A stretch of 64,000 nt of DNA from Patescibacteria group bacterium (lineage in GTDB: Bacteria; Patescibacteriota; Patescibacteriia; PEXW01). Position numbers and translations under genes: made by a program. Of this stretch, positions 20,209-43,156 are shown one piece after another. The DNA lies in the NCBI GenBank assembly GCA_041665345.1, contig JBAYJA010000001.1:9206-73205 (forward strand), given 5' to 3'. Positions within the stretch are counted from its first letter, which is position 1; every line of letters begins with the position of its first letter. Below the pieces are notes generated by a model. That model saw only the letters and a program-made list of their open reading frames with translations. It did no database searches and was not told the origin of the DNA.

Positions 20209-20725
20209 GCGTTCCTCCTTGGAGCTTTTCTAGTTCTCCATCTTCAAGGAGTTTCTGCAACGTCGTTTCAGAAGAAAGTGCCCGAGTGGCCACAGAAAGT
20301 TGGAAGAGTTGATCCGATCCAACTTTTTTCCGGATGGCAGCCCGAAGGCGCCCAGCCGGTGACGTGACAATTGCAATGAGATCTGGCAGAATTGCCGGAA
20401 TCAGGTGACCCACCCGATCCGCAGCAACATCCATACTATCTATTTTTCCAGGCTGCTCTTCAATCGGTGAAGCTAGGAGTTTCTGCTTCACTTCCTTGGT
20501 TAAGAAACCTTGGAAAAGTTCATGGGGTATGAGCTTGTAGAGCGCATCCCGGTGCACCATTTTTGACGGTACCGTTATCCCATGCCACCAGTCATACACA
20601 GTGGCTCGCGGGAAACCAAAGCGGGCTGCAAATTCTACCAAAGATGAGATCCCTTTACTTTCCGCGAAGTTTCGAAGGAGTTGGCTGCAGAGTGTGACCC
20701 GCTGCTGCTTCGCTGTCTCTTTCAT
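20198..20725 (-). CDS. Hypothetical protein with an N-terminal XRE-like HTH. Its stop overlaps the GHKL gene start by 11 nt.
   Basis: GISSLVEFAARFGFPRATVYDWWHG resembles an HTH. It is translationally coupled to its neighbours. Confidence 0.4.
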   Translation of the reverse strand: MKETAKQQRVTLCSQLLRNFAESKGISSLVEFAARFGFPRATVYDWWHGITVPSKMVHRDALYKLIPHELFQGFLTKEVKQKLLASPIEEQPGKIDSMDVAADRVGHLIPAILPDLIAIVTSPAGRLRAAIRKKVGSDQLFQLSVATRALSSETTLQKLLEDGELEKLQGGTHGN

Positions 20726-20728
20726 GGC

Positions 20729-21589
20729 CTACCCTCTTTTCTTTAATTGATGTTTTTTGCCCCAGCGGTAAAGACGCGAGAGCTGTGACTGATGCACGTT
20801 CTTTCCCGTTAGCTCAAGAATGACTCTCTGGAGGTCTGGCCAGGAGTACGTTTTCTTGAGTTTCAGAATGAGGTTCGCCAACGTCATGCCGCGTTTTTCC
20901 AGAGTGATGTCGTTTGCGTCTTTGAGTTTACCAGTCGCGAAAGGATATGCTGCAGTTTTGGCGACATCCCTTTTGGAATGGTGGCGTTTCGGTGACTGAT
21001 TGGTGTTGTCAACTGGGATGGATAAAAATTTCATCCAGTTGCTGAGGGTGCGTTGTGCATTCTTGCGTTTCAGCAGCTTTGGGTACTTCCGGCTGAGGGC
21101 CAGCGCGGCTTTTCCCTGGGAACCCTTCTTAGCGTACATGTCCGAAATGATTTTTCGGGCAGCAGCTTCGCCACCAACCGCATCGCAAAACGTTTTCAGA
21201 TTGCCAACGAGCGTTTTGGATTCCTTCGATGGTGCAGGCGGCATGGCCTGTGGGGTAGGCGGTTTCTTGGTTTCTCCCCGTGGGGTCACATCTTGAATGG
21301 GCCAGCCAAAGGTGCGGGCGGAGACAACAATCCAAACGGCAAATTGGCGCGCAGCCTCAATGAGCTTGAGCGCCAGCTCGCCAGTAGTGCCTTTGCCCAG
21401 CTGTTCAGTAACAACTCCTGCGTTCAGACTGAGGATAGCTTTCGTTACCACTCTCGATCGATCAGCTTGCGCTAAGAAACCGAGGAGTTGCGGATGCTTT
21501 TTGAGGTATGCCAGCCACTCGTTGTCGGTGAGCTGTTCATTCTTCACCAGGTGAAGTTGCTGCATTAATAGGGTTACATATTCATTCAT
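20729..21589 (-). CDS. Hypothetical protein with a C-terminal HTH-like segment.
   Basis: C-terminal SWPDLQRVILELTGKNVHQSQLSRLYRWGKK resembles transposase/Psq-type HTH domains. There is a 4-nt gap to the next gene. Confidence 0.35.
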   Translation of the reverse strand: MNEYVTLLMQQLHLVKNEQLTDNEWLAYLKKHPQLLGFLAQADRSRVVTKAILSLNAGVVTEQLGKGTTGELALKLIEAARQFAVWIVVSARTFGWPIQDVTPRGETKKPPTPQAMPPAPSKESKTLVGNLKTFCDAVGGEAAARKIISDMYAKKGSQGKAALALSRKYPKLLKRKNAQRTLSNWMKFLSIPVDNTNQSPKRHHSKRDVAKTAAYPFATGKLKDANDITLEKRGMTLANLILKLKKTYSWPDLQRVILELTGKNVHQSQLSRLYRWGKKHQLKKRG

Positions 21590-27877: not shown

Positions 27878-28810
27878 TTAATCGTCAACGAGCATTTCGT
27901 TAAATTGCTTCACAATAAGCGGTGCCAGAGAAAGCTGCTCGATTTTGTCGGTGCGCTTTTCCCACGGCAGGTAAATGGAGTCAGTCGTGTAGATTTTTGA
28001 TATGATCTCCGCCCGATTGAGCGTCTGAATTGCACCTCCGGCCAGCACGCCATGGGTGGCCATGACGATAATATTCTCTCCGCCAACTTTCCGCACCTCT
28101 CGTTCGGTAGCTGCAATCGTGCCGGCAGTGCTGATTTCATCTTCTCGGATAATTGCGGTAATACCCCGCAAGCTGCCTTGGATACCATGTGACTCCGAAA
28201 TATCATGCTCCGGCCGACTTTTGATCAGCGAGATCATTGGAATGCCTAGAGTTTTGGCAAAAGCTTCAGTGGTTTTCGATCTGCCTTTATCCGGACTCAA
28301 AGCCCGAACGTTGCTGAGGTCTCGATCTCTCAGCACATCCACGAAGAGTGGATTTGCATCAATGACCCAGGTGCGCAAACCTGCATCTTGGAAGTACTGA
28401 ACATTCTTTGGTGAATGCGGGTCGCAGAGCATCACGTCGGTTGCACCAGCAGCTGCAAGTAATTTAGCCACGAGCTCCGCAGTAACTGCTTCGCCACCAT
28501 CCTTGTCTCGCTCCTGCCGTCGGAAACCCATGAAGGGCATGACCGCAATGAGTCGCGAAGGATTGTACCGTTTGACAGCACTAACAATCGCAAAGAGATC
28601 AAAGTACGTCTTCGGAGCGTACTCACCAGTCGATTGCACCACCGCACACGGTTGACCCACTATCACAGCAGGGTGGGTAATCTTGTACCATGGCTCAGAA
28701 TCTGCAAACTCTCGTATACCCACCTCACTGAGGGGTTGTCCAAGTAGTTCACAGACTCCTCGTGCCATTTTATGACTCGCTCGACCGCAAAAAATGAGTG
28801 GTTTTACCAT
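27878..28810 (-). CDS. prs: Ribose-phosphate pyrophosphokinase (PRPP synthetase).
   Basis: Two PRTase-type domains, the PRPP-binding loop ISTAGT, and an N-terminal LIFCGRASHKMARGV, at a typical 310 aa. Confidence 0.85.
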   Translation of the reverse strand: MVKPLIFCGRASHKMARGVCELLGQPLSEVGIREFADSEPWYKITHPAVIVGQPCAVVQSTGEYAPKTYFDLFAIVSAVKRYNPSRLIAVMPFMGFRRQERDKDGGEAVTAELVAKLLAAAGATDVMLCDPHSPKNVQYFQDAGLRTWVIDANPLFVDVLRDRDLSNVRALSPDKGRSKTTEAFAKTLGIPMISLIKSRPEHDISESHGIQGSLRGITAIIREDEISTAGTIAATEREVRKVGGENIIVMATHGVLAGGAIQTLNRAEIISKIYTTDSIYLPWEKRTDKIEQLSLAPLIVKQFNEMLVDD

Positions 28811-28909: not shown

Positions 28910-29108
28910 GCTTTATACTTTACTCTCCGTTTCTTAAAAATTCGCTTTAACGCTTGCTGAGTATTCGGCTGATGCGGTGCGATGCTAACTCCGCCCCCTC
29001 GACTTGCCCTCTCGATTGTCCTCGAGGGCTTCGCTCGGGACGGAGAACCCCGAACCTATGAATCAGGGTCCGTTAGGTTCATCAAGCGCAACAAAGGAGG
29101 GCACGCAC

Positions 29109-29549
29109 ATGCCCCACACGTCTGTCGCCGAAGCCCCAGTGGTTGCTGCCACTGCCGAATCGGCAATTCCCTTCGGTTCGCACCTCACCCTGGATGGGTA
29201 CGGGTGCAGTGAGGAGAAGCTCGCAGACATGGACCTCGTGTTTGAGGTTCTGGAACGCTTGCCTGGGCACCTGGGCATGCACAAGATCATTACGCCGTAC
29301 GTGGTGAAGGCCGCCGGCAACGATAAGAAGGATCCGGGTGGCTACTCAGGGTTCGTCATGATTGCGGAGAGTCACATCTCCATTCATACCTTCCCCAAGA
29401 AGCGGTTCGTCTCCATTGATGTGTACACCTGCCAAGGGGATCTGGACACGGCCAAGGCGAAAGCTTTTTTCCAAGAGGCTTTCCAGATTGAAGAGTTTGA
29501 AGAGCATCGGATTACCCGCGGCACGAAGTACGACATCTACCCACTCTAG
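29109..29549 (+). CDS. speH: S-adenosylmethionine decarboxylase proenzyme, a small bacterial pyruvoyl enzyme of the SpeH/SpeD type.
   Basis: ESHISIHTFPE-like autoprocessing motif (ESHISIHTFPK) and LTLDGYGC. Start refined to the ATG at 29109 after AAGGAGG. Confidence 0.8.
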   Translation: MPHTSVAEAPVVAATAESAIPFGSHLTLDGYGCSEEKLADMDLVFEVLERLPGHLGMHKIITPYVVKAAGNDKKDPGGYSGFVMIAESHISIHTFPKKRFVSIDVYTCQGDLDTAKAKAFFQEAFQIEEFEEHRITRGTKYDIYPL

Positions 29550-29644
29550 TCTGAGTCCAATGCAGCTCCTCAATGGAGCTGTTTTTGGTTGCTGAACTGT
29601 GCCAGACGCGGTACGCTGCAGGTAGCGCATTAACCCCCAAACCT

Positions 29645-29881
29645 ATGCCAACCATCCATAATCACACTGTTGACGGCGACACCGAAGCCCTGCGGGCGTT
29701 TCGGCAGCTTGATGAAGACGAAGCAAAGGTACTTTTGGAATATGTAAAACGACATGACGAAGCGGATTTTGAAACCACGGTGAATGGGAAGCGGATGAAC
29801 TTCAAACTCATCCGGGAGTCAGACGGCACGTACCATGTGGAAAATGAAGGGAAGGAAAAGTCTTCCAGTGGTTGGTTTTAA
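29645..29881 (+). CDS. Small hypothetical protein.
   Basis: ORF track frame with the internal ATG at 29645 chosen as start. No motif. Confidence 0.3.
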   Translation: MPTIHNHTVDGDTEALRAFRQLDEDEAKVLLEYVKRHDEADFETTVNGKRMNFKLIRESDGTYHVENEGKEKSSSGWF

Positions 29882-29884
29882 GGT

Positions 29885-30454
29885 ATGATGCAACGCTTTG
29901 GTCCTTGGACGCGACTTTCATCAAAGGTGAAGTATAAGAATTCTTGGATAAGCATCCAAGAAGATAGAGTTATTCAACCGGATGGCAGTAAAGGAGTCTA
30001 TGCGTATCTGAGAAAAGTTCCTGGAATTTTTGTTGTGGCTTTCACTGGTACGGAAGTCTACCTACTCCGCCAATTCCGATACGTCCTAAGGAAGTCTATT
30101 TATGAAATACCAGCAGGCACTGTAAACTCAAAGAATTTTTTGCAGGTTGCAAAACGAGAATTATTTGAGGAAACTGGAATGCATGCAAAGCAGTGGACTC
30201 GCCTCGGGAAGCACTACATTGCCCCTGGGCATGAGTCGACGTGTATTATCACGTATCTAGCTGAAGGGCTTGATGAAAAATCGGTAAGTATTGATGGGCA
30301 AGAAGGCGACGAAAGCATCCAAGCGGTTATGAAAGTGTCGTTACCAAAGCTCTGGAAAATGATCCATGAGGGGAAAATTGAGTGCGGATTAACCTTAGCT
30401 GCATTGAATTACTTTTTTTCCTACCTCCGTGTCGTCAGAAAGCAAAAAATATGA
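29885..30454 (+). CDS. NUDIX hydrolase, ADP-ribose pyrophosphatase-like.
   Basis: Nudix box AGTVNSKNFLQVAKRELFEETGM (G-x5-E-x7-REuxEExGu). Confidence 0.75.
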   Translation: MMQRFGPWTRLSSKVKYKNSWISIQEDRVIQPDGSKGVYAYLRKVPGIFVVAFTGTEVYLLRQFRYVLRKSIYEIPAGTVNSKNFLQVAKRELFEETGMHAKQWTRLGKHYIAPGHESTCIITYLAEGLDEKSVSIDGQEGDESIQAVMKVSLPKLWKMIHEGKIECGLTLAALNYFFSYLRVVRKQKI

Positions 30455-31017: not shown

Positions 31018-31172
31018 AAGCAGGGGTGGAGGGTTTTGGTGTGGCGGCGAGTATGGATGGAGGGTGTGGATTGAGGGTAAGAGCAAGAAGTCCGTTTTTT
31101 GTCATTGCGAGCTCCAGCAGGAGCGTGGCAATCCCGCAGTAGTATGGGATCAAGTTTTTTTGCCGATAAAAA

Positions 31173-31198
31173 AACCGGACTCCCTGGGGAATCCGGTT
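31173..31198 (-). terminator. Conserved intrinsic terminator, copy T1, downstream of paralog A1.
   Basis: AACCGGATTCCCCAGGGAGTCCGGTT followed by a U-tract on the minus strand. It is identical to T2 and T4. Confidence 0.6.
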
Positions 31199-31208
31199 GT
31201 CGGTGCTA

Positions 31209-32030
31209 TTACTTTACTACTGCCAGGACGAGGTCGCCATCGCGCTCGATGAGCACGCCGTGCGGGTGCTCGGTCCAGGCATCCCACGGACCATCGTAAA
31301 CGATTTTCTCATCAAGGGTTTGAAAGACTTTACCCTCAAGAGTGATGATTTGCCCTCCCTGCGTAACGAACCAAACCGTTGGAGATGTTGTGCTTTTTTG
31401 TAGCACATTGCTCCCGGTCCATTCCCATAGTCCGTCTGTTTCTGCGGTGTAGAAAACGCACGATTTTGATGTGCGCCAGTGCATCAGTCCGCGTTTTTGC
31501 AAACACCCAGGGAAATGCTTTTGCTGCCCAATAATTTTGAGCATTGTACCACATTGCACAATGCAACCAAGATTATTTACTGACCAGGCATCGAATGGTT
31601 CGTTCACAATGACCTGTTCAGTGGATTTGGTTATTCGGACTATCTCATTTCCATATCGAATGTAGATGGTCTTCCTCCATTCCTGCACTTCAAAGGGGTC
31701 AGTTTTACTGACAGCCGCACGGAGTGGATGCAATGTGCCATTGCACTCGAAAATATTTCGAAGATTATTCATGCTTTTGGCAAAGAGTGCCGTCTGTCCG
31801 AATGGGAAGAAGTTTTCACACGTCCCTGTGAAAACCGGATGTTTCACATTGTCATTCCAGAAGATTTCTCTTCCGCATTGCACCAGGACGCCGTGCAATC
31901 CTGGGACATGCGCATCGGATGCTTCACCTTGGTACAGAATAATGCGGTCACCAGTTTTGGCAGCAGCTAATAAATCTTCGTAGGCCACCTCCCTATTTGC
32001 TTGGGGGTGGTATCTTTTGTAAAGATGCAT
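31209..32030 (-). CDS. Paralog-array protein A1, unknown function, with an internal repeat.
   Basis: Start refined to MHLYK at 32030 after AAGGAGG. It shares C-terminal EHPHGVLIERDGDLVL and FWNDN blocks with the 33213 protein. Its own promoter is TTGACG-17-TAAGGT at 32069-32097. Confidence 0.5.
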   Translation of the reverse strand: MHLYKRYHPQANREVAYEDLLAAAKTGDRIILYQGEASDAHVPGLHGVLVQCGREIFWNDNVKHPVFTGTCENFFPFGQTALFAKSMNNLRNIFECNGTLHPLRAAVSKTDPFEVQEWRKTIYIRYGNEIVRITKSTEQVIVNEPFDAWSVNNLGCIVQCGTMLKIIGQQKHFPGCLQKRGLMHWRTSKSCVFYTAETDGLWEWTGSNVLQKSTTSPTVWFVTQGGQIITLEGKVFQTLDEKIVYDGPWDAWTEHPHGVLIERDGDLVLAVVK

Positions 32031-32105
32031 TCTTTTCCTCCTTGGTTTGTTCATCTGGTTTTCCGCTTACCTTACGGAAATGGCGCTCTGTCGTCAAGTA
32101 TAAAA

Positions 32106-32131
32106 AACCGGACTCCCTGGGGAATCCGGTT
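32106..32131 (-). terminator. Conserved intrinsic terminator, copy T2, downstream of paralog B1.
   Basis: Identical 26-mer hairpin plus a U-tract. Confidence 0.6.
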
Positions 32132-32154
32132 ATATGAACGTTCAATACAACGCG

Positions 32155-33090
32155 CTATGGAATAAGTTGGAAGAGCGTATCACCGGCCTCAATAATTAGG
32201 CCGTAATCATTCTCCTCGAACCTTTCACAGGGACCCGCGTATACATAGCGTATCCCGTTATGGATGCCATCTTCACGCTTGCTATAGCGTGATGGCGATG
32301 ACTCGGTGAAAGGAAAACTTTGCATACGGCCTGAAGATGTATCTACAAGCCAGGATGTTTTTTTGCCCTCATGCGTTTGCGTGAAGGCAATTGTGTTCGT
32401 TCCAACAGTGGAAAAGTTATCACACTTGCCTCCAGGTAGGACGCAGCACTTTTTGCCGTTCAGTAGTAAGTCCTGACCCTGGAAGTCCAACACTCCCAGC
32501 GTTATTGCCAACCAATCATCTGTAGCCTCGAAGGTCCCAATTTCTTGGTGGTGGACGGTCAATGAAAATGGCGCTTTTCCAGAAACAATGTGGCGGCAGA
32601 ATGTATTCCCGCGTCGAGTCAGAATTCCATTTGGAAGTGCCTGCCATCCTTCGATAGTCTGGATGAGGTGTGGCACTTCGCCAGGCAGCGCAGGGCTGCC
32701 GTCTTTTCGAAAGTACAAATCACGGTCAGGATCTTGGTCTTCCGGCTCAGTGAGGATGTACTGGCCATTCTGAATGATTTGGCCATGGTCCACCACCACG
32801 AAACCAAAGTCGTTTGTATGCCAGCTGTCACGTGAATACACAGACTGCCGAAAAACATTTCCACGTTCATCCGTGACCATTGCACCATTGAGAAAGTACC
32901 ATACGTCTTTCTCGAAGTCTGTTCCTTCCACAACGACTCCGCCGGGGAATGCTCTCCAGTCCAACCCTGCTTCGCAGTACTCTGCATTCCCATTAGGATG
33001 AACAGGGATGATGTCTCCACTCCTAGCTTCCTGGAGAAGTTCATGGAATGGACCAATCTTTTTCAACGTACAGAGAAATAAATCGTTCAT
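32155..33090 (-). CDS. Paralog-array protein B1, unknown function, with an internal repeat.
   Basis: N-terminal MNDLFLCTLKKIGPFHELL and C-terminal YGLIIEAGDTLFQL are shared with the 34161 protein. It has repeated [DT]W.AFP.G and NG.xV/LC motifs. Its own promoter is TTGACA-17-TAGGGT. Confidence 0.5.
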   Translation of the reverse strand: MNDLFLCTLKKIGPFHELLQEARSGDIIPVHPNGNAEYCEAGLDWRAFPGGVVVEGTDFEKDVWYFLNGAMVTDERGNVFRQSVYSRDSWHTNDFGFVVVDHGQIIQNGQYILTEPEDQDPDRDLYFRKDGSPALPGEVPHLIQTIEGWQALPNGILTRRGNTFCRHIVSGKAPFSLTVHHQEIGTFEATDDWLAITLGVLDFQGQDLLLNGKKCCVLPGGKCDNFSTVGTNTIAFTQTHEGKKTSWLVDTSSGRMQSFPFTESSPSRYSKREDGIHNGIRYVYAGPCERFEENDYGLIIEAGDTLFQLIP

Positions 33091-33164
33091 TTTTTACCTC
33101 CTCAAGGTATTTTTCGTTTTCACCTGACCCTACCAAAGTGGGTATAAGATGTCAACAAGAAAAA

Positions 33165-33191
33165 AACCGGACTCCCTGGGGGAATCCGGTT
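33165..33191 (-). terminator. Conserved intrinsic terminator, copy T3, downstream of paralog A2.
   Basis: Same hairpin with one extra G in the loop. Confidence 0.6.
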
Positions 33192-33212
33192 GTATTCGGT
33201 CAAAATCTGTCA

Positions 33213-34046
33213 TCACCGAATAATAATGAGCAGTGTCTCTTTCCCGCGGTTAATCAGTACGCCCTTAGGATGTTCCCTTGGCACGTCGCCACATTTTGGG
33301 GAAAAACCATTTAGCAGTAATTCGTCATTCCAGAAGAGATTACTGCCAATGAGATACACGTTTCCTCCAGGCAGGAGGGTATAGTTATCAACCGGTGCTT
33401 CATGAATGATTTGAGAACCATTTTTCAAGACGCGGCCGTCCGGCAAAGAAATTCCTATGCCAGAAGAAAAACGTCGCCAATTTTTCATTTCTCCTTCGTA
33501 TAGTGTGGTAGAAAAGTTCAGTATGAGTCGTTTGTACGCACTGTGCAGTATTCCAGGATACTCCACGACAACACCATCTGGATGCAGATCCCAGTCAATG
33601 CGGACATCACGAACCCCCCGGCTGTTAAGAATATCAAGTTCTACATAATCACCCAGTGGCATTTCAGCTATGGGCACCTCATCATTTAGGAGAAATTGGT
33701 TTCCTCGCCGAATGATAATTTCACCCTCGTACGTTACCTTATAGCTATCGTGAAAATGCAAAAAGGGTACGCGTGTGTCATTCATGAAATAGGAATCCCC
33801 AACAGAAGTTAGGCGCCATCCGCCAAAGCTACGCCGTACGAATCCGGGAATAGGCTGACTTTCGTCACCATTGATTGCCCAGTAAAAATTACGTTCTAGG
33901 CCAATGCAGGTGTATACACCCGCATCTGCTGGGTAAGTACAGGCGCGATATTCCTCGTCGAGGAGAATGCAATCAAACGGCTCAGCTTCCTGAATAGCTC
34001 GTGGGATATCGGCCTTTGCATACTTTTGTACTTTTGCAACGAGCAT
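33213..34046 (-). CDS. Paralog-array protein A2.
   Basis: Homologous to the 31209 protein (EHPKGVLINRGKE, FWNDELLLNGF). Its own promoter is TTGACA-16-TACTGT. Confidence 0.5.
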   Translation of the reverse strand: MLVAKVQKYAKADIPRAIQEAEPFDCILLDEEYRACTYPADAGVYTCIGLERNFYWAINGDESQPIPGFVRRSFGGWRLTSVGDSYFMNDTRVPFLHFHDSYKVTYEGEIIIRRGNQFLLNDEVPIAEMPLGDYVELDILNSRGVRDVRIDWDLHPDGVVVEYPGILHSAYKRLILNFSTTLYEGEMKNWRRFSSGIGISLPDGRVLKNGSQIIHEAPVDNYTLLPGGNVYLIGSNLFWNDELLLNGFSPKCGDVPREHPKGVLINRGKETLLIIIR

Positions 34047-34118
34047 TTTTTTCCTTTCATTTTTAGCATTTTTAACTTTTTACAGTATCAAAAGTAGAGA
34101 TCTTGTCAAGTATAAAAA

Positions 34119-34144
34119 AACCGGACTCCCTGGGGAATCCGGTT
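34119..34144 (-). terminator. Conserved intrinsic terminator, copy T4, downstream of paralog B2.
   Basis: Identical 26-mer hairpin plus a U-tract. Confidence 0.6.
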
Positions 34145-34160
34145 GCATTGAATGAGTGGT

Positions 34161-35090
34161 CTATCGATAGTCAACGAGCTGGAAGATCAATCCGTTTGCC
34201 TCGATGATGAGACCGTAGGCATTTGGTTCGAATCGGACGCATGCTCCGTTGAACACTTTCCGATTACTACAGTAAATACCATCCTCGCGTTGGTCGTACA
34301 GTTGGATGTTTGGTGATTGTTTGTAGACATCGATACTTTTCGTTCTTGCGCTAATGTGCCAATACTCTTTGAGTTCATCGTAACGTCGAGTGAAGCATAC
34401 AGCTACGCCACCATCAGTTCGGAAGTCCCTACACTCACCGTCTGGCAGTACGCATAATCTTTCCCCATTCAGGAAAAGACACCCCTCCCGTACGTCAAGG
34501 ACCCCAAGATCCGTGCCTATCCAATCGTGCGTTACTTCGAATTCCCCCAGAACTTTGTGATCAACCTCTAGTTCATTTGGCCAAGTCCCGACGAACGTGT
34601 GTTGGGTAAAAGTACGGCCTTTTCGGGTTATGAAACCATAGGGGAATGCCTGCCATGCCGGAACAATCCTAATTATTTCCGGCCGCTCACTGGTATCTGG
34701 GGTGCCGTCCTTATGCGTTGCAATTTCAGCATCTGGATCGAAATCTTTGCAGATTACCAGGCCGGCATTTTGAAGTAGTAGCCCACCAATGCAGACGTAG
34801 AAGCCATAGTGATTCGTCCCCCAAGAGTCTATAGTGCCATACATTGTTGGCCTATATGGATTTTCAGGTGACTCGCAAACAAGTTCACCGTTTATGTGGA
34901 ACCAACTATCCTGGTCATCATTCTCCTCCACGACGACCACACCATCATTGAAAGCTTTCCATGTCGGCATATCCACGCTATCGAATTTTGGCGTGGGGAA
35001 GACCGTAATCATATCTCCAGGTTTCGCCTGGGAGATAAGCTCATCAAATGATCCAAATTTTTTCAACGTACTCAACAGTAGATTTGTCAT
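34161..35090 (-). CDS. Paralog-array protein B2.
   Basis: Start refined to MTNLLLSTLKKFGSFDELI at 35090 after GGAGGA. Homologous to the 32155 protein. Its own promoter is TTGACG-17-TACTGT. Confidence 0.5.
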   Translation of the reverse strand: MTNLLLSTLKKFGSFDELISQAKPGDMITVFPTPKFDSVDMPTWKAFNDGVVVVEENDDQDSWFHINGELVCESPENPYRPTMYGTIDSWGTNHYGFYVCIGGLLLQNAGLVICKDFDPDAEIATHKDGTPDTSERPEIIRIVPAWQAFPYGFITRKGRTFTQHTFVGTWPNELEVDHKVLGEFEVTHDWIGTDLGVLDVREGCLFLNGERLCVLPDGECRDFRTDGGVAVCFTRRYDELKEYWHISARTKSIDVYKQSPNIQLYDQREDGIYCSNRKVFNGACVRFEPNAYGLIIEANGLIFQLVDYR

Positions 35091-35200
35091 ATTTCCTCCA
35101 TAGCGTTTGTTTTTGATTTTCACGTGACAGTAGAACATTTCTTGAAATGCGTCAAGCATAAACCGTCTCTACTTGTCAGTCGTGCGTTATTTATCGTCCG

Positions 35201-37261
35201 TTGTTTGCTACACTACTCCTACCTATGTCCACTGTGATTCTCCACCGCCGGCCAGCCAAGGACCTTAAAATTGACTACGCCAAAGAGCTAAATGCTGAGC
35301 AATTTGTCGTGGTGGAAAATGGCGATGGACATGTGCTGGTTTTAGCCGGTGCCGGGTCGGGTAAGACGCGGACCATTGTCTACCGCGTGGCCTGGCTCCT
35401 GGAGCATGGCATTAGCCCAGACCGGATTTTGCTGGTCACGTTTACCAACAAAGCCGCTCGGGAAATGCTCACCCGCATTCAAGAGCGCTTGGGCGGCGTT
35501 CCGAGTCCCATTTGGGGTGGGACGTTCCACCACGTGGCCAACCGGATTCTGCGCCGCTACGCCGACCGGGTGGGCCGCACCCCCAGCTTTAGCATTCTGG
35601 ACCAGGAAGACAGCCGGAGTCTGATCAACGCGTGCATTGCAGATTTAAATATTGATACCAAGCAGCGACGCTTTCCCACGGCGAATGTTTTGAAGAACCT
35701 CATTTCCTTTTCGCGAAACACACGGCAGGATATTGCCGACATTGCTGTAGAGAAACTGCCCAACGCGCATGCAATTGTGGACCAAGTGGTCGGCGTGGCT
35801 CGGCGGTACGCCGAGCGGAAGGCGAAGCAGAACCTCATGGACTTCGATGACCTGCTCGTCCTCATGGTGGAGCTTCTGGCCAACCATGCCGATGTCCGCA
35901 CCAAGCTCCAAGAGCAGTTCCAGTACGTCCTGGTAGACGAATTTCAAGATACGAACTCTTTACAAGGCGAGCTAGTGCGCAATCTTGCCAGCAAGCACGG
36001 GAATTTGCTGGTCGTGGGGGATGACAGCCAGAGCATTTACGCCTTCCGCGGCGCAGACATAAGTAATATTTTGCAGTTCCCCAAGACCTTTCCCGAAACC
36101 AAGCAGTTTCGCCTGGAGTCCAATTACCGTTCCACCCCGCAGATCCTCAAATTGGCCAACGCAGTTATCCGGCACAACCTTGAGCAGTTCCCCAAAGAGC
36201 TCCATGCCATGCGCCCAGCCGGGGATTTGCCGCAGCTCATTCCCTGCCGGGATGATGGGCAGGAAGCCACGTTCATTGCTCAGCGCATTTTAGAATTGCA
36301 AACGAACGGCACTGCGTTTCGCGAGATGGCCGTGCTCGTGCGCGCGATTAGCCACACCCAAGCTTTGGAATTTGAGCTCGCCCAGCGGGACATTCCATAC
36401 ATTGTGCGTGGCGGCTTGCGGTTCTTTGAGCGCGCGCACATCAAGGACGTGCTGGCCTACGTGAAGTTCATTGCCAACCCAGCAGATGAAGTTGCGTGGT
36501 TACGCGCCACCACCTTACACGTCGGTGTTGGACCCAAGACCGCGGGAGAACTTTTCAACCGCGTGCAGAGCTTGGGATCGGATACTGATCTGAAGACCAT
36601 CAATTTTGTGTCGTTGGTGGACAAGCGGGGGATGAAGGGGATAGCCATGTTCCAGGCGGTGATTCGGAAGATGTTGGACACCGGAGTCATGGATGAAAAA
36701 AAGGAAAAAGTAGTGTACCTTCCGCAGGAGCTCATTCGTGTTGTGGCAACCGGGGAGTACATTGATTACCTGCGCACGCAGTACCCAGATGCGGATGAGC
36801 GTTTGCAGGACTTGGAACAGCTGGCCTTGTTTGCCAGCAAGTACAAATCCCTTAGCTCATTTCTGTCCGACGTGAGTTTGCAAGAAGCGTTCAGCGTGGG
36901 TGCGGTGAGCAGCGAGAATGATGACGCCATTGTGCTGTCCACCATCCACCAAGCCAAAGGCTTGGAATGGGAAGCAGTTTTTGTCCCTCGTCTGGTGGAA
37001 GGGAGCTTCCCCAATGGACGCGCCACGGAGGAGCGAAACGGCATTGAAGAAGAGCGACGGCTATTCTACGTGGCCACCACGCGGGCCAAGACCCACTTAG
37101 CGTTGTCCTACCCATTGGTCATCAATCCCACGGGCGCCATGCTCCTCACCCGGCCATCACGTTTCTTGGACGAAATTCCATCCAACGCCCTGGATCGGGT
37201 TGAGCTGCAGGAAGAAGGATTGGGGAATTGGGACGGGAGCGAAAGAATCATTCAGATATAA
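35201..37261 (+). CDS. UvrD/PcrA-family ATP-dependent DNA helicase.
   Basis: Walker A VLAGAGSGKTRT, VDEFQDTN, and a C-terminal UvrD_C motif VLSTIHQAKGLEWEAVFV. Confidence 0.85.
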   Translation: MFATLLLPMSTVILHRRPAKDLKIDYAKELNAEQFVVVENGDGHVLVLAGAGSGKTRTIVYRVAWLLEHGISPDRILLVTFTNKAAREMLTRIQERLGGVPSPIWGGTFHHVANRILRRYADRVGRTPSFSILDQEDSRSLINACIADLNIDTKQRRFPTANVLKNLISFSRNTRQDIADIAVEKLPNAHAIVDQVVGVARRYAERKAKQNLMDFDDLLVLMVELLANHADVRTKLQEQFQYVLVDEFQDTNSLQGELVRNLASKHGNLLVVGDDSQSIYAFRGADISNILQFPKTFPETKQFRLESNYRSTPQILKLANAVIRHNLEQFPKELHAMRPAGDLPQLIPCRDDGQEATFIAQRILELQTNGTAFREMAVLVRAISHTQALEFELAQRDIPYIVRGGLRFFERAHIKDVLAYVKFIANPADEVAWLRATTLHVGVGPKTAGELFNRVQSLGSDTDLKTINFVSLVDKRGMKGIAMFQAVIRKMLDTGVMDEKKEKVVYLPQELIRVVATGEYIDYLRTQYPDADERLQDLEQLALFASKYKSLSSFLSDVSLQEAFSVGAVSSENDDAIVLSTIHQAKGLEWEAVFVPRLVEGSFPNGRATEERNGIEEERRLFYVATTRAKTHLALSYPLVINPTGAMLLTRPSRFLDEIPSNALDRVELQEEGLGNWDGSERIIQI

Positions 37262-37278
37262 CACCAAGTTTGATTTGC

Positions 37279-37869
37279 ATGTCCCTCCCCCGGTTCCACG
37301 AAGATAGCTATGGACATTTTGTAACGACGAAGACCTTCCAAAGTCAGCGGCTATTTACTGATCCAAAAAATTGTCAGATGGTCTTAGATAATTTGGAATT
37401 TTACCGTCAGCAATTACACTTCGACGTGTTGGGGTACTGCCTCATGCCAGACCATTTCCATATGATTGTGTGGTGGGATGTGGATGCACACCCAAAGCTG
37501 ACCATTGGGAAAATTATGCAAGGCATCAAGAGCCACTCGGCGAAGGAGATTGTTACCTACCACCAACTGGGTAGGCGAGGTCCCTTGACCTCGCCTGGTG
37601 GAAAACGCCCGGGTCAAGGGACCCGGGCTACCCACCCAGGGGTATATCCCAAGCGTCGAATGAGTGTACAGACCACCCGCATCTGGCAACCCTCCTTCTA
37701 CGACTTTAACATCCATTCCGATAACAAACTCCGCCAGAAGCTCGCCTACATCCACAATAACCCGGTCACCGCAGGGCTTTGTAAAAACCCTGAAGACTGG
37801 CCGTGGTCATCCTACCGGCAGGTAGAGCTGGGTGAGCAAAGCAAAGAGGTTGCAATCACTACCTGGTAA
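37279..37869 (+). mobile_element. IS200/IS605-family Y1 (HUH) transposase of the RAYT/TnpA-REP type, carrying a 20-25-aa in-frame insertion.
   Basis: HUH motif DHFHMIVW, and a C-terminal NPVTAGLCKNPEDWPWSSY holding the catalytic Tyr region typical of RAYTs. An internal insert GRRGPLTSPGGKRPGQGTRAT is encoded by two hairpins. Confidence 0.7.
37573..37628 (+). repeat. Double-hairpin (REP/MITE-like) element inserted in-frame in the transposase gene.
   Basis: AGGCGAGGTC-CCTT-GACCTCGCCT (10-bp stem), then a 9-nt spacer, then GCCCGGGTC-AAGG-GACCCGGGC (9-bp stem). The two loops are complementary (CCTT and AAGG). Confidence 0.55.
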
Positions 37870-37870
37870 C

Positions 37871-37898
37871 AAAAAAAGACCAGCCTTGGTGGCTGGTC
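37871..37898 (-). terminator. Intrinsic terminator of the ACCAGCC family for the 37907 gene.
   Basis: GACCAGCC-ttggt-GGCTGGTC with a U-tract on the minus strand. Confidence 0.55.
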
Positions 37899-37906
37899 AA
37901 ATAGGC

Positions 37907-38311
37907 TTACTGTACGTACGGTCGAGGGTCTTTTAAGAAACGACCGCTCCTACCCACCGCAATGTACTGCGGGATCTGGGAACCCTGTTCGTAATCACGC
38001 CGCTCGGCCAGAATGACGAAATGCAAGGTGTCCATGGAGTAGCGATAGTACGAGGTGTCCAAGTCGTCCTCCGGGTACATTGCTGGCAAATTTTCGTTCC
38101 AGCGACCTTCCCGGCAAAAGTGACTTTCCTGGTTGATCATGAGTTGCAGCAAGGTGCGTTTGGCGATTCCAGCTTGCTTTTCTTGAAGCGCATTCTCATC
38201 GGAACTTGTAGTTATTCCTATGAGGGAGGCGATCATAATGAACGAGATTGTGAACAGCATGATTTTCATTTTGGTCATTCCTGTCATGTTTCCTCCAAAG
38301 TATGATTTCAT
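37907..38311 (-). CDS. Small secreted or membrane-anchored hypothetical protein.
   Basis: N-terminal signal/TM KIMLFTISFIMIASLIGI. Confidence 0.4.
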   Translation of the reverse strand: MKSYFGGNMTGMTKMKIMLFTISFIMIASLIGITTSSDENALQEKQAGIAKRTLLQLMINQESHFCREGRWNENLPAMYPEDDLDTSYYRYSMDTLHFVILAERRDYEQGSQIPQYIAVGRSGRFLKDPRPYVQ

Positions 38312-38359
38312 TTTCGTGTCACCATAGCCATGGTCAGGGGTATTGTCAAGCGCATAACA

Positions 38360-38386
38360 AAAACCAGCCTCATGGGAGACTGGTCA
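38360..38386 (-). terminator. Intrinsic terminator of the ACCAGCC family.
   Basis: ACCAGCCTC-atggga-GACTGGT, an imperfect stem, with flanking A-runs on the plus strand. Confidence 0.4.
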
Positions 38387-38393
38387 AAAAATT

Positions 38394-39023
38394 CTAAGGA
38401 ACAAATCGCTCGGGTTGCAATCCAGGGAGCCGAGACGTTGCTAAACTGATTGCGTCTAGGCTGCGTTGGAGGTGGTCGTACTCTGGATGTACGCCCTTAC
38501 TTTCATCGTAGGCGAGTGAAAATTCGTGTTGCACGCGTGCGGAGAAGTTTTCTGGATTGCCATACTTTTCGTATAGGGAACTTGCTGGGGAGATCGTTTT
38601 CCAGACAATTGCCGATGGAAAGGTATGCGCCATATCCGGGCACGTGGTGGTGATGCTGTCTGGGTACTCTAGGTAGGAGTCTGAAAAGGGACGGAGGAAG
38701 CTTCGTTCGACAATTTTTCCATTGGCATTTTGAACAAGCATCTTTTCCGGTTTCACCTTCAAGCTTATATACGTTCCGAAAACCAAAAAGAAAAGGAACA
38801 TTGTTAGAGCAAAGGCGTGCGCTCGTAAAGGCGCTGGGTTGGAACTGTTTCTTGCTATGAAGCACACCGCACTCCAAATGAGGATTAGTAGACTCGTGAA
38901 GAGCTGAGTATAGCCAGGAGACGTTCGCCCAATCGAAATTGCCCAGCCGCCAATAAGTAGATTTAGTACACATATGACGAGGAACATCCAAATCGCGTAC
39001 CAGGTCATTTTTTTCAGGTTCAT
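38394..39023 (-). CDS. Membrane protein with three TM helices and a soluble domain, paralogous to 15704-16405.
   Basis: It shares LYEKYGNPENFSARVQHEF with LFRKYGKPEIFFADFEQEC of the other copy. An upstream promoter TTGACA-17-TACGGT lies at about 39058-39086. Confidence 0.5.
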   Translation of the reverse strand: MNLKKMTWYAIWMFLVICVLNLLIGGWAISIGRTSPGYTQLFTSLLILIWSAVCFIARNSSNPAPLRAHAFALTMFLFFLVFGTYISLKVKPEKMLVQNANGKIVERSFLRPFSDSYLEYPDSITTTCPDMAHTFPSAIVWKTISPASSLYEKYGNPENFSARVQHEFSLAYDESKGVHPEYDHLQRSLDAISLATSRLPGLQPERFVP

Positions 39024-39141
39024 TTTTCCTCCAAATTTTCAAGGCTCATTCAATTTCAAGACACCGTAACAAAACAACTAGACAGTGTCAATAGCAAAGC
39101 CCCTCCATTCGTCGTCCGTTGTCTGTTGTCCGTTGTTTACT

Positions 39142-39169
39142 AAAAACCAGCCCTCGGCAGAAGGCTGGT
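39142..39169 (-). terminator. Intrinsic terminator of the ACCAGCC family.
   Basis: ACCAGCC-ctcggcaga-aGGCTGGT preceded by AAAAA on the plus strand. Confidence 0.5.
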
Positions 39170-39177
39170 CATAAGTA

Positions 39178-43126: not shown

Positions 43127-43156
43127 AAAAAAACCAGCCTCGGTGAGGAGACTGGT
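43127..43156 (-). terminator. Intrinsic terminator of the ACCAGCC family.
   Basis: ACCAGCCTC-ggtgagg-AGACTGGT preceded by AAAAAAA. Confidence 0.45.

What the first reader, a model, noticed from the sequence alone, without database searches (positions are those of the whole stretch)
31173..35160. A-B-A-B tandem array of four paralogous genes, each an autonomous transcription unit with near-identical terminators
Proteins 31209-32030 (A1), 32155-33090 (B1), 33213-34046 (A2) and 34161-35090 (B2) are mutually homologous and fall into two subtypes that alternate, consistent with duplication of a two-gene module. They share [DT]W.AFP.GVVVE motifs, and each protein carries the motif twice, which indicates an internal duplication. 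Each gene has its own sigma70-like promoter (TTGACR-16/17-TAnnGT) and strong RBS. Each is followed by the same 26-nt hairpin, AACCGGATTCCCCAGGGAGTCCGGTT plus a U-tract; T3 differs by one extra G. The proteins have no signal peptides and no recognisable catalytic motifs. Tandem arrays of cytoplasmic paralogs with conserved regulatory flanks are typical of immunity-protein or toxin-antidote cassettes and other fast-evolving accessory loci.
Basis: seen in the sequence. Interest (0 to 1): 0.7.

Follow-up and report, generated by a model that had tools for sequence, protein, structure and literature searches.

The report
Swappable propeller-protein gene cassettes, Patescibacteria
Four neighbouring genes in a tiny uncultured (Patescibacteria) bacterium encode diverged copies of a previously undescribed beta-propeller-type repeat protein, each with its own promoter and the same terminator hairpin, at a locus where close relatives carry one very different copy; function is unknown and no toxin-immunity link was found.

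Summary
Four minus-strand genes sit at the stated coordinates. Each is preceded by TTGACR-16/17-TAnnGT plus an RBS, and each is followed by the same 26-nt hairpin and U-tract (three exact copies, one with an extra loop base).

Three related genomes, with flanking proteins 95-98% identical, carry a single gene at this site, in three allele classes (97%, 51% and 39% identity). Segment-wise identity is mosaic, with breakpoints in the conserved promoter and tail/terminator ends. Within one allele class dN/dS is 0.10.

I read this as a recombination-driven hypervariable cassette locus encoding soluble binder proteins.

The toxin-immunity idea has no support: the 64 kb window holds no toxin, secretion or integrase gene, the proteins match no known immunity family, and relatives are solitary among housekeeping genes. 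The function remains inferred.

The parts
31173..31198 (-). Terminator hairpin T1 behind A1, followed by a U-tract (31166-31172)
   Evidence: Exact 26-nt copy. 11-bp stem, -18.9 kcal/mol. Picked up by the terminator scan.
31209..32030 (-). A1, 273 aa: head + degenerate blades + conserved tail. This is the only cassette with orthologs in the related genomes.
   Evidence: Head HMM 25.5 bits, repeat HMM 24.1 bits. 36-39% identical to L001, L008 and L009 genes at the same site.
32037..32097 (-). A1 promoter and 5'UTR: -35 TTGACG (32092-32097), 17-nt spacer, -10 TAAGGT (32069-32074), RBS GGAGG (32037-32041)
   Evidence: Orthologous sequence is conserved in L001, L008 and L009.
32106..32131 (-). Terminator hairpin T2 behind B1
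32155..33090 (-). B1, 311 aa, family member of B type
   Evidence: 41% identical to B2, E 1e-74. Head HMM 23.5 bits, repeat HMM 16.9 bits. Only itself found among 5.8 billion proteins.
33097..33155 (-). B1 promoter and 5'UTR: -35 TTGACA (33150-33155), 17-nt spacer, -10 TAGGGT (33127-33132), RBS GGAGG (33097-33101)
33165..33191 (-). Terminator hairpin T3 behind A2 (27 nt, one extra loop base)
   Evidence: -20.2 kcal/mol.
33213..34046 (-). A2, 277 aa: strongest repeat signal, degenerate head
   Evidence: Repeat HMM 49.4 bits; head not significant. Only itself in the 5.8-billion-protein search.
34051..34109 (-). A2 promoter and 5'UTR: -35 TTGACA (34104-34109), 16-nt spacer, -10 TACTGT (34082-34087), weak RBS AGGAA (34051-34055)
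34119..34144 (-). Terminator hairpin T4 behind B2
34161..35090 (-). B2, 309 aa, family member of B type
   Evidence: Head HMM 27.6 bits, repeat HMM 12.2 bits.
35095..35155 (-). B2 promoter and 5'UTR: -35 TTGACG (35150-35155), 17-nt spacer, -10 TACTGT (35127-35132), RBS GGAGG (35095-35099). Divergent from uvrD (start 35225).
32102..35205 (-). Three-cassette block (B2-A2-B1) that is present in the window but absent from L001, L008 and L009. Its ends lie just upstream of the A1 -35 element and just after the uvrD-proximal sequence GTGTAGCA.

Best explanation
This is a hypervariable cassette locus between the translin-like and UvrD genes of a Patescibacteria (CPR) bacterium.

Each cassette is a monocistronic unit with four parts: a sigma70-type promoter, a short 5'UTR with an RBS, an ORF, and a strong intrinsic terminator.

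The ORFs encode soluble, non-enzymatic proteins of a rare family that has not been described. The family architecture has three elements. The first is an N-terminal beta-alpha-beta 'head' (..LL..A.TGD.I.LY.G). The second is a variable number of ~31-aa four-stranded blade repeats of beta-propeller type. The third is a C-terminal half-blade 'tail' (HP.GVLIER.G.L.L.VVK). In the window proteins the blades are old and degenerate, with about six per protein, which would make a single-chain propeller.

The gene bodies are exchanged, gained or lost by homologous recombination anchored in the conserved cassette ends (promoter/5'UTR on one side, tail plus terminator on the other). This gives one to four copies per genome and deeply diverged allele classes among otherwise similar genomes. 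Within an allele class the protein is under purifying selection.

Shown here: the anatomy, family membership, the fold of a regular relative, the copy-number difference, the mosaic histories, and purifying selection within one allele class.

Inferred: that the proteins act as specific binders whose diversity is maintained by diversifying or frequency-dependent selection in some conflict or recognition process. I put this at about 0.3-0.35. Neutralising a variable protein ligand is the most natural version, but no partner is identified.

Also inferred: that the identity of the four terminator/-35 junctions within this genome reflects gene conversion or junction-mediated recombination, and not function alone.
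For: Anatomy.

Family:
- An exhaustive HMMER search of 1.84 billion representatives found 77 hits, E down to 7e-20 outside the locus. They match in multiple stretches and show head, 31-aa repeats and tail.
- HMMs built from relatives alone score all four window proteins above all shuffles: the repeat HMM for all four, and the head HMM for A1, B1 and B2.
- Within 64 kb only the array genes match.

Fold:
- AF2 of relative P0012 gave pLDDT 80 and pTM 0.70, with four strands per unit.
- The proteins match no Pfam, NCBIfam, PADLOC or PHROG family.

Comparative evidence:
- L001, L008 and L009 are syntenic, and their translin and UvrD proteins are 95-98% identical to the window's. Each has one cassette.
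- Cassette identity is 97% (L008/L009), 51% (L001 versus those two) and 39% (window A1 versus all).
- L008-L009 cassette dS is 0.157 against flank dS of 0.51-0.65, with dN/dS 0.10. The L001 versus L008/L009 cassette is synonymous-saturated against a flank dS of about 0.55.
- The 100-nt identity profile is mosaic. For L008-L009 the body is 96-99%, the flanks 83-94% and the spacer 38%. For L008-L001 the tail/hairpin is 98%, the body 33-62% and the promoter 90%.
- The last ~100 nt of the CDS plus the hairpin stem are conserved in all four genomes, while the loop varies.
- Array GC3 is 0.42-0.50 against 0.60-0.72 in core neighbours. GC dips across the array.
Against: - The function is not demonstrated, and no binding partner, toxin or effector was found.
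- The AF2 model of a window protein itself is poor (pLDDT 43). The propeller fold of A1, B1, A2 and B2 is therefore extrapolated from a relative and from motif spacing.
- For window A1 versus its orthologs, flank dS is already about 0.9-1.15. A fast-evolving true ortholog (omega about 0.3-0.6) therefore cannot be distinguished from allele replacement.
- By flank dS the window genome is the outgroup of the other three, so gain versus loss of the three extra cassettes cannot be polarised.
- Only four genomes are available.
- Promoter and terminator activity are predictions.
- Related terminator stems shared by unrelated genes also occur elsewhere in this genome. Part of the hairpin similarity may therefore be lineage style.
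Confidence: 0.55

Rival explanations
1. Homogeneous polyimmunity locus. The four proteins would be immunity proteins that neutralise polymorphic toxins from kin, competitors or the host bacterium, stockpiled in tandem.
For: The paralogs are tandem, in the same orientation and not interrupted by other genes. Copy number and content differ between related genomes; these are features 1 and 3 of polyimmunity loci in PMC3482391. The proteins are soluble and non-enzymatic, consistent with binding proteins. Allele classes are deeply diverged, with purifying selection within a class.
Against: The 64 kb window contains no toxin, Rhs/CDI/T6SS/T7SS/Esx component or toxin cassette. The proteins match no Imm family or any Pfam, NCBIfam or PADLOC model. 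None of five relatives examined in context is next to a toxin, and all are solitary among housekeeping genes. Each gene has its own promoter and terminator, whereas polyimmunity loci have short spacers and polycistronic transcription. Extended polyimmunity loci have not been reported from CPR.
Confidence: 0.15
2. Lineage-specific repeat proteins with a mundane structural or scaffold role, under weak constraint. The array would be a simple tandem expansion. The divergence would reflect relaxed selection plus repeat instability, with no conflict-driven diversification.
For: The proteins are orphan-like. The repeats are degenerate, with no DNA-level periodicity left. Regular relatives still undergo repeat amplification. 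GC3 is low. For window A1 versus its orthologs, omega of about 0.3-0.6 is compatible with weak constraint. This CPR region also shows other indels and a diverged PRPP synthetase.
Against: Within one allele class omega is 0.10, with 9.5 nonsynonymous against 26.5 synonymous differences. That is clear purifying selection, not relaxed selection. Cassette dS is three to four times lower than the flanks in one genome pair and saturated in another. This requires recombination of distinct alleles and cannot come from a uniformly high rate. Head, tail, promoter and terminator are conserved. A ~1 Mb streamlined genome keeps four intact copies.
Confidence: 0.2
3. Mobile hairpin-dependent cassettes. The hairpins would be recombination or transposition sites, either attC-like or REP-like, acted on by the nearby REP-associated tyrosine transposase (RAYT) or by an integron-type integrase.
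For: A RAYT gene (37279-37869; NF047646, 106.8 bits against a cutoff of 80) lies 2 kb away, in a segment absent from L008 and L009. Those genomes also lack the three extra cassettes. Each cassette ends in the same hairpin, and the three-cassette block is bounded precisely by hairpin/promoter junctions.
Against: The hairpin is not dispersed: there are four copies, all in the array, and none flanks the RAYT. Relatives without the RAYT have the same hairpin behind their single cassette. The window has no IntI or other tyrosine or serine recombinase. The element is a perfect 11-bp GC-rich stem plus U-tract. That is a canonical terminator, not a 57-141-nt attC with extrahelical bases. The cassettes carry promoters. 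Mosaic breakpoints lie in ~100-nt conserved coding and promoter segments, as expected for homologous recombination.
Confidence: 0.04
4. Exported effectors or adhesins for the episymbiotic lifestyle. They would be secreted by a non-classical route that uses the conserved C-terminal tail or the N-terminal head as a signal, and they would be hypervariable because they meet the host cell.
Against: There is no signal peptide, lipobox or TM segment. No secretion genes are nearby. The conserved termini are explained structurally: the head supplies the last strand of a blade and the tail the first strands, giving propeller closure. They also serve as recombination anchors.
Confidence: 0.06

Closest known systems
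Homogeneous polyimmunity loci of polymorphic toxin systems (Zhang et al. 2012, PMC3482391)
   Same: Tandem, co-oriented, distantly related paralogs of one family, not interrupted by other genes. Number and content differ between related genomes. The proteins are small, soluble and non-catalytic.
   Different: The family has no known link to any toxin, and no toxin lies in 64 kb. Every gene has its own promoter and terminator, with 115-125-nt spacers, instead of a tight polycistronic layout. The family matches none of the ~90 Imm families. Relatives elsewhere are single genes among housekeeping genes.
Beta-propeller repeat proteins (WD40, TolB, PQQ, lectin propellers; oligomeric few-blade propellers such as Ph1500)
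   Different: The blade unit is only ~31 aa, against the usual 40-60. No Pfam propeller or WG-repeat model matches. The family has its own conserved N-terminal head. The window proteins have degenerate, longer-spaced (~45-50 aa) blades, and their own fold is not confidently predicted.
Integron gene-cassette arrays
   Same: A co-oriented array of single-gene cassettes, each ending in a conserved inverted repeat. The number of cassettes differs between related genomes.
   Different: There is no integrase or attI. The repeat is a 26-nt perfect GC-rich stem-loop plus U-tract (an intrinsic terminator) and not an attC. The cassettes carry their own promoters. Exchange appears to be by homologous recombination in conserved gene ends.
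Hypervariable allelic-replacement loci maintained by recombination in conserved flanks (for example surface-antigen or specificity-subunit loci). This comparison comes from general knowledge and was not tested here.
   Same: The ends are conserved and the middle is deeply diverged. Segment histories are mosaic. The cassette's dS is decoupled from flank dS in both directions. There is purifying selection within an allele class.
   Different: The products are cytoplasmic and have no known partner or pathway. The number of cassettes also varies (1 versus 4), and each cassette is an autonomous transcription unit.

Membership tests
Homogeneous polyimmunity locus (PMC3482391) | Tandem, same-orientation paralogs of one family, never interrupted by toxin genes | tested here: met
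   Four co-oriented genes with nothing between them.
Homogeneous polyimmunity locus (PMC3482391) | The family is an immunity family, meaning members elsewhere sit next to toxin genes or match a known Imm family | tested here: not met
   No Pfam, NCBIfam or PADLOC match. Five relatives in context have no toxin neighbour. No toxin in the 64 kb window.
Homogeneous polyimmunity locus (PMC3482391) | Small intergenic distances implying one polycistronic message | tested here: not met
   Spacers of 115-125 nt, each holding a -19 kcal/mol terminator plus a promoter-like site. Transcription itself was not measured.
Homogeneous polyimmunity locus (PMC3482391) | Number and type of genes differ between related strains | tested here: met
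   Four genes here against one in L001, L008 and L009.
Beta-propeller repeat protein | Repeats fold as four-stranded antiparallel blades packed side by side as in propellers | tested here: inconclusive
Beta-propeller repeat protein | Sequence membership in a described propeller or WG-repeat family (WD40, Kelch, PQQ, TolB, PF14903 WG_beta_rep) | tested here: not met
   hmmscan against Pfam found nothing at E <= 10 for the four proteins and only sub-threshold noise for 10 relatives. The PDB sequence profile search found nothing credible.
Rho-independent (intrinsic) terminator | GC-rich stem-loop immediately followed by a U-tract, just downstream of a stop codon | tested here: met
   11-12 bp stem, 4- or 3-nt loop, 6-7 U, lying 10-22 nt after each stop codon. 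-18.9 to -20.2 kcal/mol, z about -5.
Rho-independent (intrinsic) terminator | Stem pairing is preserved while the loop varies among orthologs | tested here: met
   L008 has a loop C>A change. L009 has loop CCAG>UUAA plus an A-U>G-U change. All variants fold alike.
Rho-independent (intrinsic) terminator | Transcripts end at the U-tract in vivo | not testable with these tools
   Needs Term-seq or RNA-seq.
Integron cassette array | IntI tyrosine recombinase and attI adjacent to the array | tested here: not met
   No recombinase domain in any sizeable ORF of the window.
Integron cassette array | attC sites (57-141 nt, imperfect, with R''/L''-L'/R' boxes and extrahelical bases) and promoterless cassettes | tested here: not met
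   The element is a 26-nt perfect hairpin plus U-tract, and every cassette has TTGACR-N16/17-TAnnGT.
REP element / RAYT system | A RAYT gene is present | tested here: met
   37279-37869, NF047646 at 106.8 bits against a cutoff of 80.
REP element / RAYT system | The palindrome is dispersed in many intergenic copies and flanks the RAYT gene | tested here: not met
   Four copies, all in the array, and none near the RAYT. One copy per related locus, including genomes without the RAYT segment. Only 64 kb of about 1.08 Mb was visible.

The most novel reading that the evidence does not exclude
The conserved terminator/-35 junction together with the conserved head and tail coding ends may act as a portable homology module. 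It would let a population of episymbiotic CPR bacteria capture, stack and swap autonomous binder-gene cassettes without any dedicated recombinase, in effect an integrase-free cassette array. The short-blade propellers it carries would be a new class of intracellular specificity proteins, for example immunity-like neutralisers of host, competitor or phage factors, kept diverse by frequency-dependent selection.
Probability: 0.12. Interest if true: 0.75.

Novelty: new variant of a known kind. Interest (0 to 1): 0.5.

Why it matters
CPR/Patescibacteria genomes are about 1 Mb and heavily streamlined, and a large share of their genes have no known function.

This locus defines a rare, previously unmodelled repeat family with an unusually short (~31 aa) propeller-type blade.

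It is also one of the few places where otherwise similar genomes of this lineage differ sharply, with a clear recombination signature and purifying selection within alleles. That pattern normally marks genes involved in recognition or conflict.

The locus is therefore a concrete, testable entry point for asking what these episymbionts must vary from strain to strain. The family may also interest people working on repeat-protein evolution or design. If the proteins turn out to be plain scaffolds, the finding reduces to an orphan-gene expansion.

Tried and rejected
1. Known families. Pfam, NCBIfam, PADLOC and PHROGs gave nothing for the four proteins, and Pfam gave nothing for 10 relatives. WG-repeat and Imm families are rejected.

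2. Word-indexed search of 5.8 billion proteins with B1 and A2 returned only the queries themselves. With a di-repeat profile it returned only three short members.

3. PDB by sequence. A marginal hit to the retron Ec83 HNH endonuclease (E 0.003, profile) was not reproduced with a single sequence. I treat it as noise from beta-hairpin motifs.

4. Foldseek against PDB and BFVD found nothing at E < 1e-3. The afdb50 library was unavailable.

5. AF2 of B1 with the four-sequence alignment gave pLDDT 43 and is not usable.

6. Probing with the hairpin found no copies in the metagenome or viral collections. The family is absent from the phage and plasmid collections by tblastn. The search for related loci failed with the profile and gave one weak locus with P0012.

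7. Rfam found no family in the array.

8. The REP/RAYT and integron readings are rejected on distribution and anatomy.

9. My own interim claim that A1 must be an ancient replaced allele because synonymous sites are saturated was weakened. Flank dS between the window and its relatives turned out to be about 1. The recombination case now rests on the L001, L008 and L009 comparisons.

10. My interim reading of a compensatory stem change in the L009 hairpin was wrong. The changes lie in the loop, plus one wobble change in the stem.

11. Literature searches found no description of this repeat or locus.

Full report
**1. What is in the sequence**

Four ORFs lie head-to-tail on the minus strand at exactly the coordinates given: A1 31209-32030 (273 aa), B1 32155-33090 (311 aa), A2 33213-34046 (277 aa) and B2 34161-35090 (309 aa).

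Each intergenic spacer has the same layout:
- the stop codon, then 10-22 nt;
- the hairpin AACCGGATTCCCCAGGGAGTCCGGTT;
- six or seven T;
- (A)TACTTGACR, the -35 element;
- a spacer of 16/17 nt;
- TAnnGT, the -10 element;
- a 5'UTR of about 30 nt;
- GGAGG (AGGAA for A2);
- the start codon.

The hairpin is exact three times and carries one extra loop base once. It occurs nowhere else in the 64 kb, with 0 copies expected by chance. It folds as an 11-12 bp stem of -18.9 to -20.2 kcal/mol (z about -5) followed by a U-tract, which is a textbook intrinsic terminator.

The -10 elements match TATAAT at only 3 of 6 positions, so the generic promoter scan did not list them. The A1 promoter and 5'UTR are nevertheless conserved in three other genomes. 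Apart from this junction block, the cassettes share no DNA similarity, and Rfam finds nothing. The proteins have no hydrophobic N-terminus or TM segment.

**2. Are the four proteins homologous?**

B1 and B2 clearly are (41% identity, E 1e-74). The other pairs are marginal:
- A1/A2 has BLAST E 0.9 and Smith-Waterman z 6.2.
- A1/B1 and B1/A2 have z about 4.
- A1/B2 and A2/B2 are not significant.
- hhalign E-values are 5e-4 to 5e-3, and the alignments are out of register.
- N-half versus C-half comparisons are not significant.

The decisive evidence came from outside the window. A word-indexed search of 5.8 billion proteins found only the queries themselves. It identified the source as a Patescibacteria-group MAG with a 1.08 Mb contig, locus tags WCV85_00245/00250.

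An exhaustive HMMER search of 1.84 billion cluster representatives with the four-protein profile found 77 proteins. These show a clean architecture:
- an N-terminal head, consensus KLLRTEIVEGSLQELLKQAKTGDVILLYEGE;
- two to eight copies of a 31-aa unit, consensus FDDWEPHPQGVVIRKGNKLLLNGKKLLYEGE;
- a tail of the form L.LVVIK.

HMMs built only from those relatives score the window proteins far above composition-matched shuffles:

| HMM | A1 | B1 | A2 | B2 | Shuffle maximum |
|---|---|---|---|---|---|
| Repeat unit (bits) | 24.1 | 16.9 | 49.4 | 12.2 | 6.4 |
| Head (bits) | 25.5 | 23.5 | not significant | 27.6 | 5-8 |

All four are therefore members of one family. They contain about five or six degenerate blades spaced 45-50 aa apart, not a simple two-fold internal duplication. 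Within the window only the array genes match the repeat HMM. The window genes retain no DNA-level periodicity. A regular relative still has a 93-bp tandem repeat.

**3. Fold**

AF2 on B1 with the four-sequence alignment was poor (pLDDT 43; all-beta C-terminal half). The regular four-repeat relative P0012 folded with pLDDT 80 and pTM 0.70, with four short strands per 31-aa unit.

No Pfam, NCBIfam, PADLOC or PHROG model matches the window proteins or the relatives. PDB sequence searches gave only noise.

The family is therefore an undescribed, unusually short-bladed propeller-type repeat. The head ends in 'LY.G', which resembles the last strand of a unit. The tail stops after the first strands of a unit. 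This is the offset expected for ring closure. That last point is inferred from the sequences and the model and was not tested.

**4. Context**

The neighbours are housekeeping genes: PRPP synthetase, an AdoMet-decarboxylase homolog, NUDIX, translin, UvrD, and further out UvrB, RuvA, FemAB, PolA, RpoB/C, FtsK and Mur ligase. Nowhere in the 64 kb is there a toxin, secretion-system component, integrase or phage gene.

Five relatives examined in their contigs are single genes among unrelated housekeeping genes, with no recurrent neighbour. The family is absent from the phage and plasmid collections.

**5. Comparative genomics of the locus**

Using the hairpin as a probe recovered L001, a contig labelled Gammaproteobacteria that is syntenic with the window and 82-89% identical to it in DNA. 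The translin and UvrD protein clusters then led to two more related genomes, L008 and L009.

In all three, a single gene of 268-271 aa occupies the space between translin and UvrD. It has the orthologous promoter and the same hairpin stem. The window therefore carries an extra block, B2-A2-B1 (about 32102-35205), bounded by promoter and terminator junctions.

Protein identity across the four genomes:

| Gene | Identity |
|---|---|
| Translin (all pairs) | 95-98% |
| UvrD (all pairs) | 96-98% |
| Cassette, L008 vs L009 | 97% |
| Cassette, L001 vs L008/L009 | 51% |
| Cassette, window A1 vs all others | 39% |

Nei-Gojobori estimates:
- Flank dS is 0.51-0.65 among L001, L008 and L009, and 0.9-1.15 between the window and the others, with omega 0.02-0.05.
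- The L008-L009 cassette has dS 0.157 and omega 0.10. It is younger than its flanks and under purifying selection.
- The L001 versus L008/L009 cassette is synonymous-saturated, with dN 0.40. It is much older than its flanks.
- For window A1 versus the others, dN is 0.64 and dS is saturated. Because flank dS is already about 1, that comparison alone cannot separate fast evolution from allele replacement.

A 100-nt identity profile makes the mosaic explicit:

| Genome pair | Segment | Identity |
|---|---|---|
| L008-L009 | cassette body | 96-99% |
| L008-L009 | flanks | 83-94% |
| L008-L009 | spacer | 38% |
| L008-L001 | tail + hairpin | 98% |
| L008-L001 | cassette body | 33-62% |
| L008-L001 | promoter | 90% |

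The last ~100 nt of the coding sequence and the hairpin stem are conserved in all four genomes, while the loop varies. The array genes have GC3 of 0.42-0.50 against 0.60-0.72 in core neighbours.

By flank dS the window is the outgroup of the other three. Gain versus loss of the three extra cassettes therefore cannot be polarised.

**6. The identical terminators**

Orthologous hairpins differ between genomes in the loop and at one wobble position. The four paralogous copies in the window, whose coding bodies are saturated at synonymous sites, are identical except for one loop insertion.

Selection for a stable stem, a U-tract and a -35 element explains much of this. The lack of any stem or loop drift among such old paralogs suggests, by inference, either gene conversion or that the junction itself serves as the homology used when cassettes are added or lost.

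This genome also has a second, looser family of related terminator stems (ACCAGCC...GGCTGGT) behind four unrelated genes, and it is present in the relatives too. Reuse of terminator stems is therefore partly a trait of the lineage.

A REP-associated tyrosine transposase lies 2 kb away in a window-specific segment. The array hairpin, however, is not dispersed, does not flank that gene, and is present in relatives that lack it. Integron features are absent.

**7. Interpretation**

Shown:
- the cassettes are built as autonomous units;
- the proteins belong to a new propeller-type repeat family;
- the locus varies in copy number and allele class;
- the segments have mosaic recombination histories;
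- selection is purifying within an allele class.

Inferred:
- The proteins are soluble specific binders kept diverse by diversifying or frequency-dependent selection. I put this at about one in three.
- Immunity to toxins is one version of that reading and has no contextual support (about 0.15).
- A mundane, weakly constrained scaffold role remains possible (about 0.2). It fits poorly with omega of 0.10 and with the two-way decoupling of cassette dS from flank dS.

**8. Verdict**

Novelty: a new variant of known kinds, namely a tandem paralog or hypervariable locus and a propeller repeat protein. Interest is moderate (0.5). It would be higher if a ligand or a population-level cassette-swapping system were demonstrated.

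Noticed in passing
window 29885-30454: The NUDIX hydrolase gene (GC3 0.43) is present in the window but absent from the syntenic loci L001 and L008. In those loci the small 78-aa gene (L008 9755-9991; homolog of the window's 102-aa ORF 29573-29881) abuts translin. This is another indel in the same 10-kb region.
   Followed up: partly
window 37262-39177: This segment holds a REP-associated tyrosine transposase (37279-37869; NF047646, 106.8 bits) and two unannotatable minus-strand genes (37907-38311, 38394-39023). It is missing from L008 and L009, where UvrD is followed directly by the LigT-like gene. The RAYT has no obvious flanking REPs.
   Followed up: partly
window 37879-37897, 38363-38384, 39146-39169, 43133-43156: A second family of terminator hairpins with a shared stem (ACCAGCC...GGCTGGT) lies behind four unrelated minus-strand genes. 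It is also present in L008 and L009, so it is a lineage-typical terminator style and does not depend on the RAYT.
   Followed up: partly
window 27878-28810: The PRPP synthetase is only 54% identical in protein to its positional homolog in L001, although adjacent genes are 95-97% identical. GC3 is 0.50. This looks like another replaced gene next to the array region.
   Followed up: no
L001 (CAZBMC010000003.1, whole locus): The contig is deposited as part of an 'uncultured Gammaproteobacteria' MAG. It is syntenic with this Patescibacteria window and 82-89% identical to it in DNA, so it is probably a mis-binned contig.
   Followed up: partly
window 18592-21589: A 538-aa HATPase_c_3 (MORC/GHKL-type) protein is followed by two genes with no family match (20198-20725, 20729-21589). 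This may be a defence-like module.
   Followed up: no
window 466-2433: A 655-aa protein with three Lamin-tail domains and a PKD domain, probably a surface protein.
   Followed up: no
L004 8350-8522: A regular family member (P0015) keeps a 93-bp (31-aa) DNA tandem repeat at 81% identity, so repeat amplification is recent in some relatives. Three beta-repeat-like genes (faint WD40/WG hits) follow it but do not match the family HMM.
   Followed up: partly
window 29004-29549: An AdoMet-decarboxylase (PF02675) homolog with an N-terminal extension. A paper seen in passing (PMC10407285) reports that such homologs can be ornithine or arginine decarboxylases. Its specificity here is unknown.
   Followed up: no
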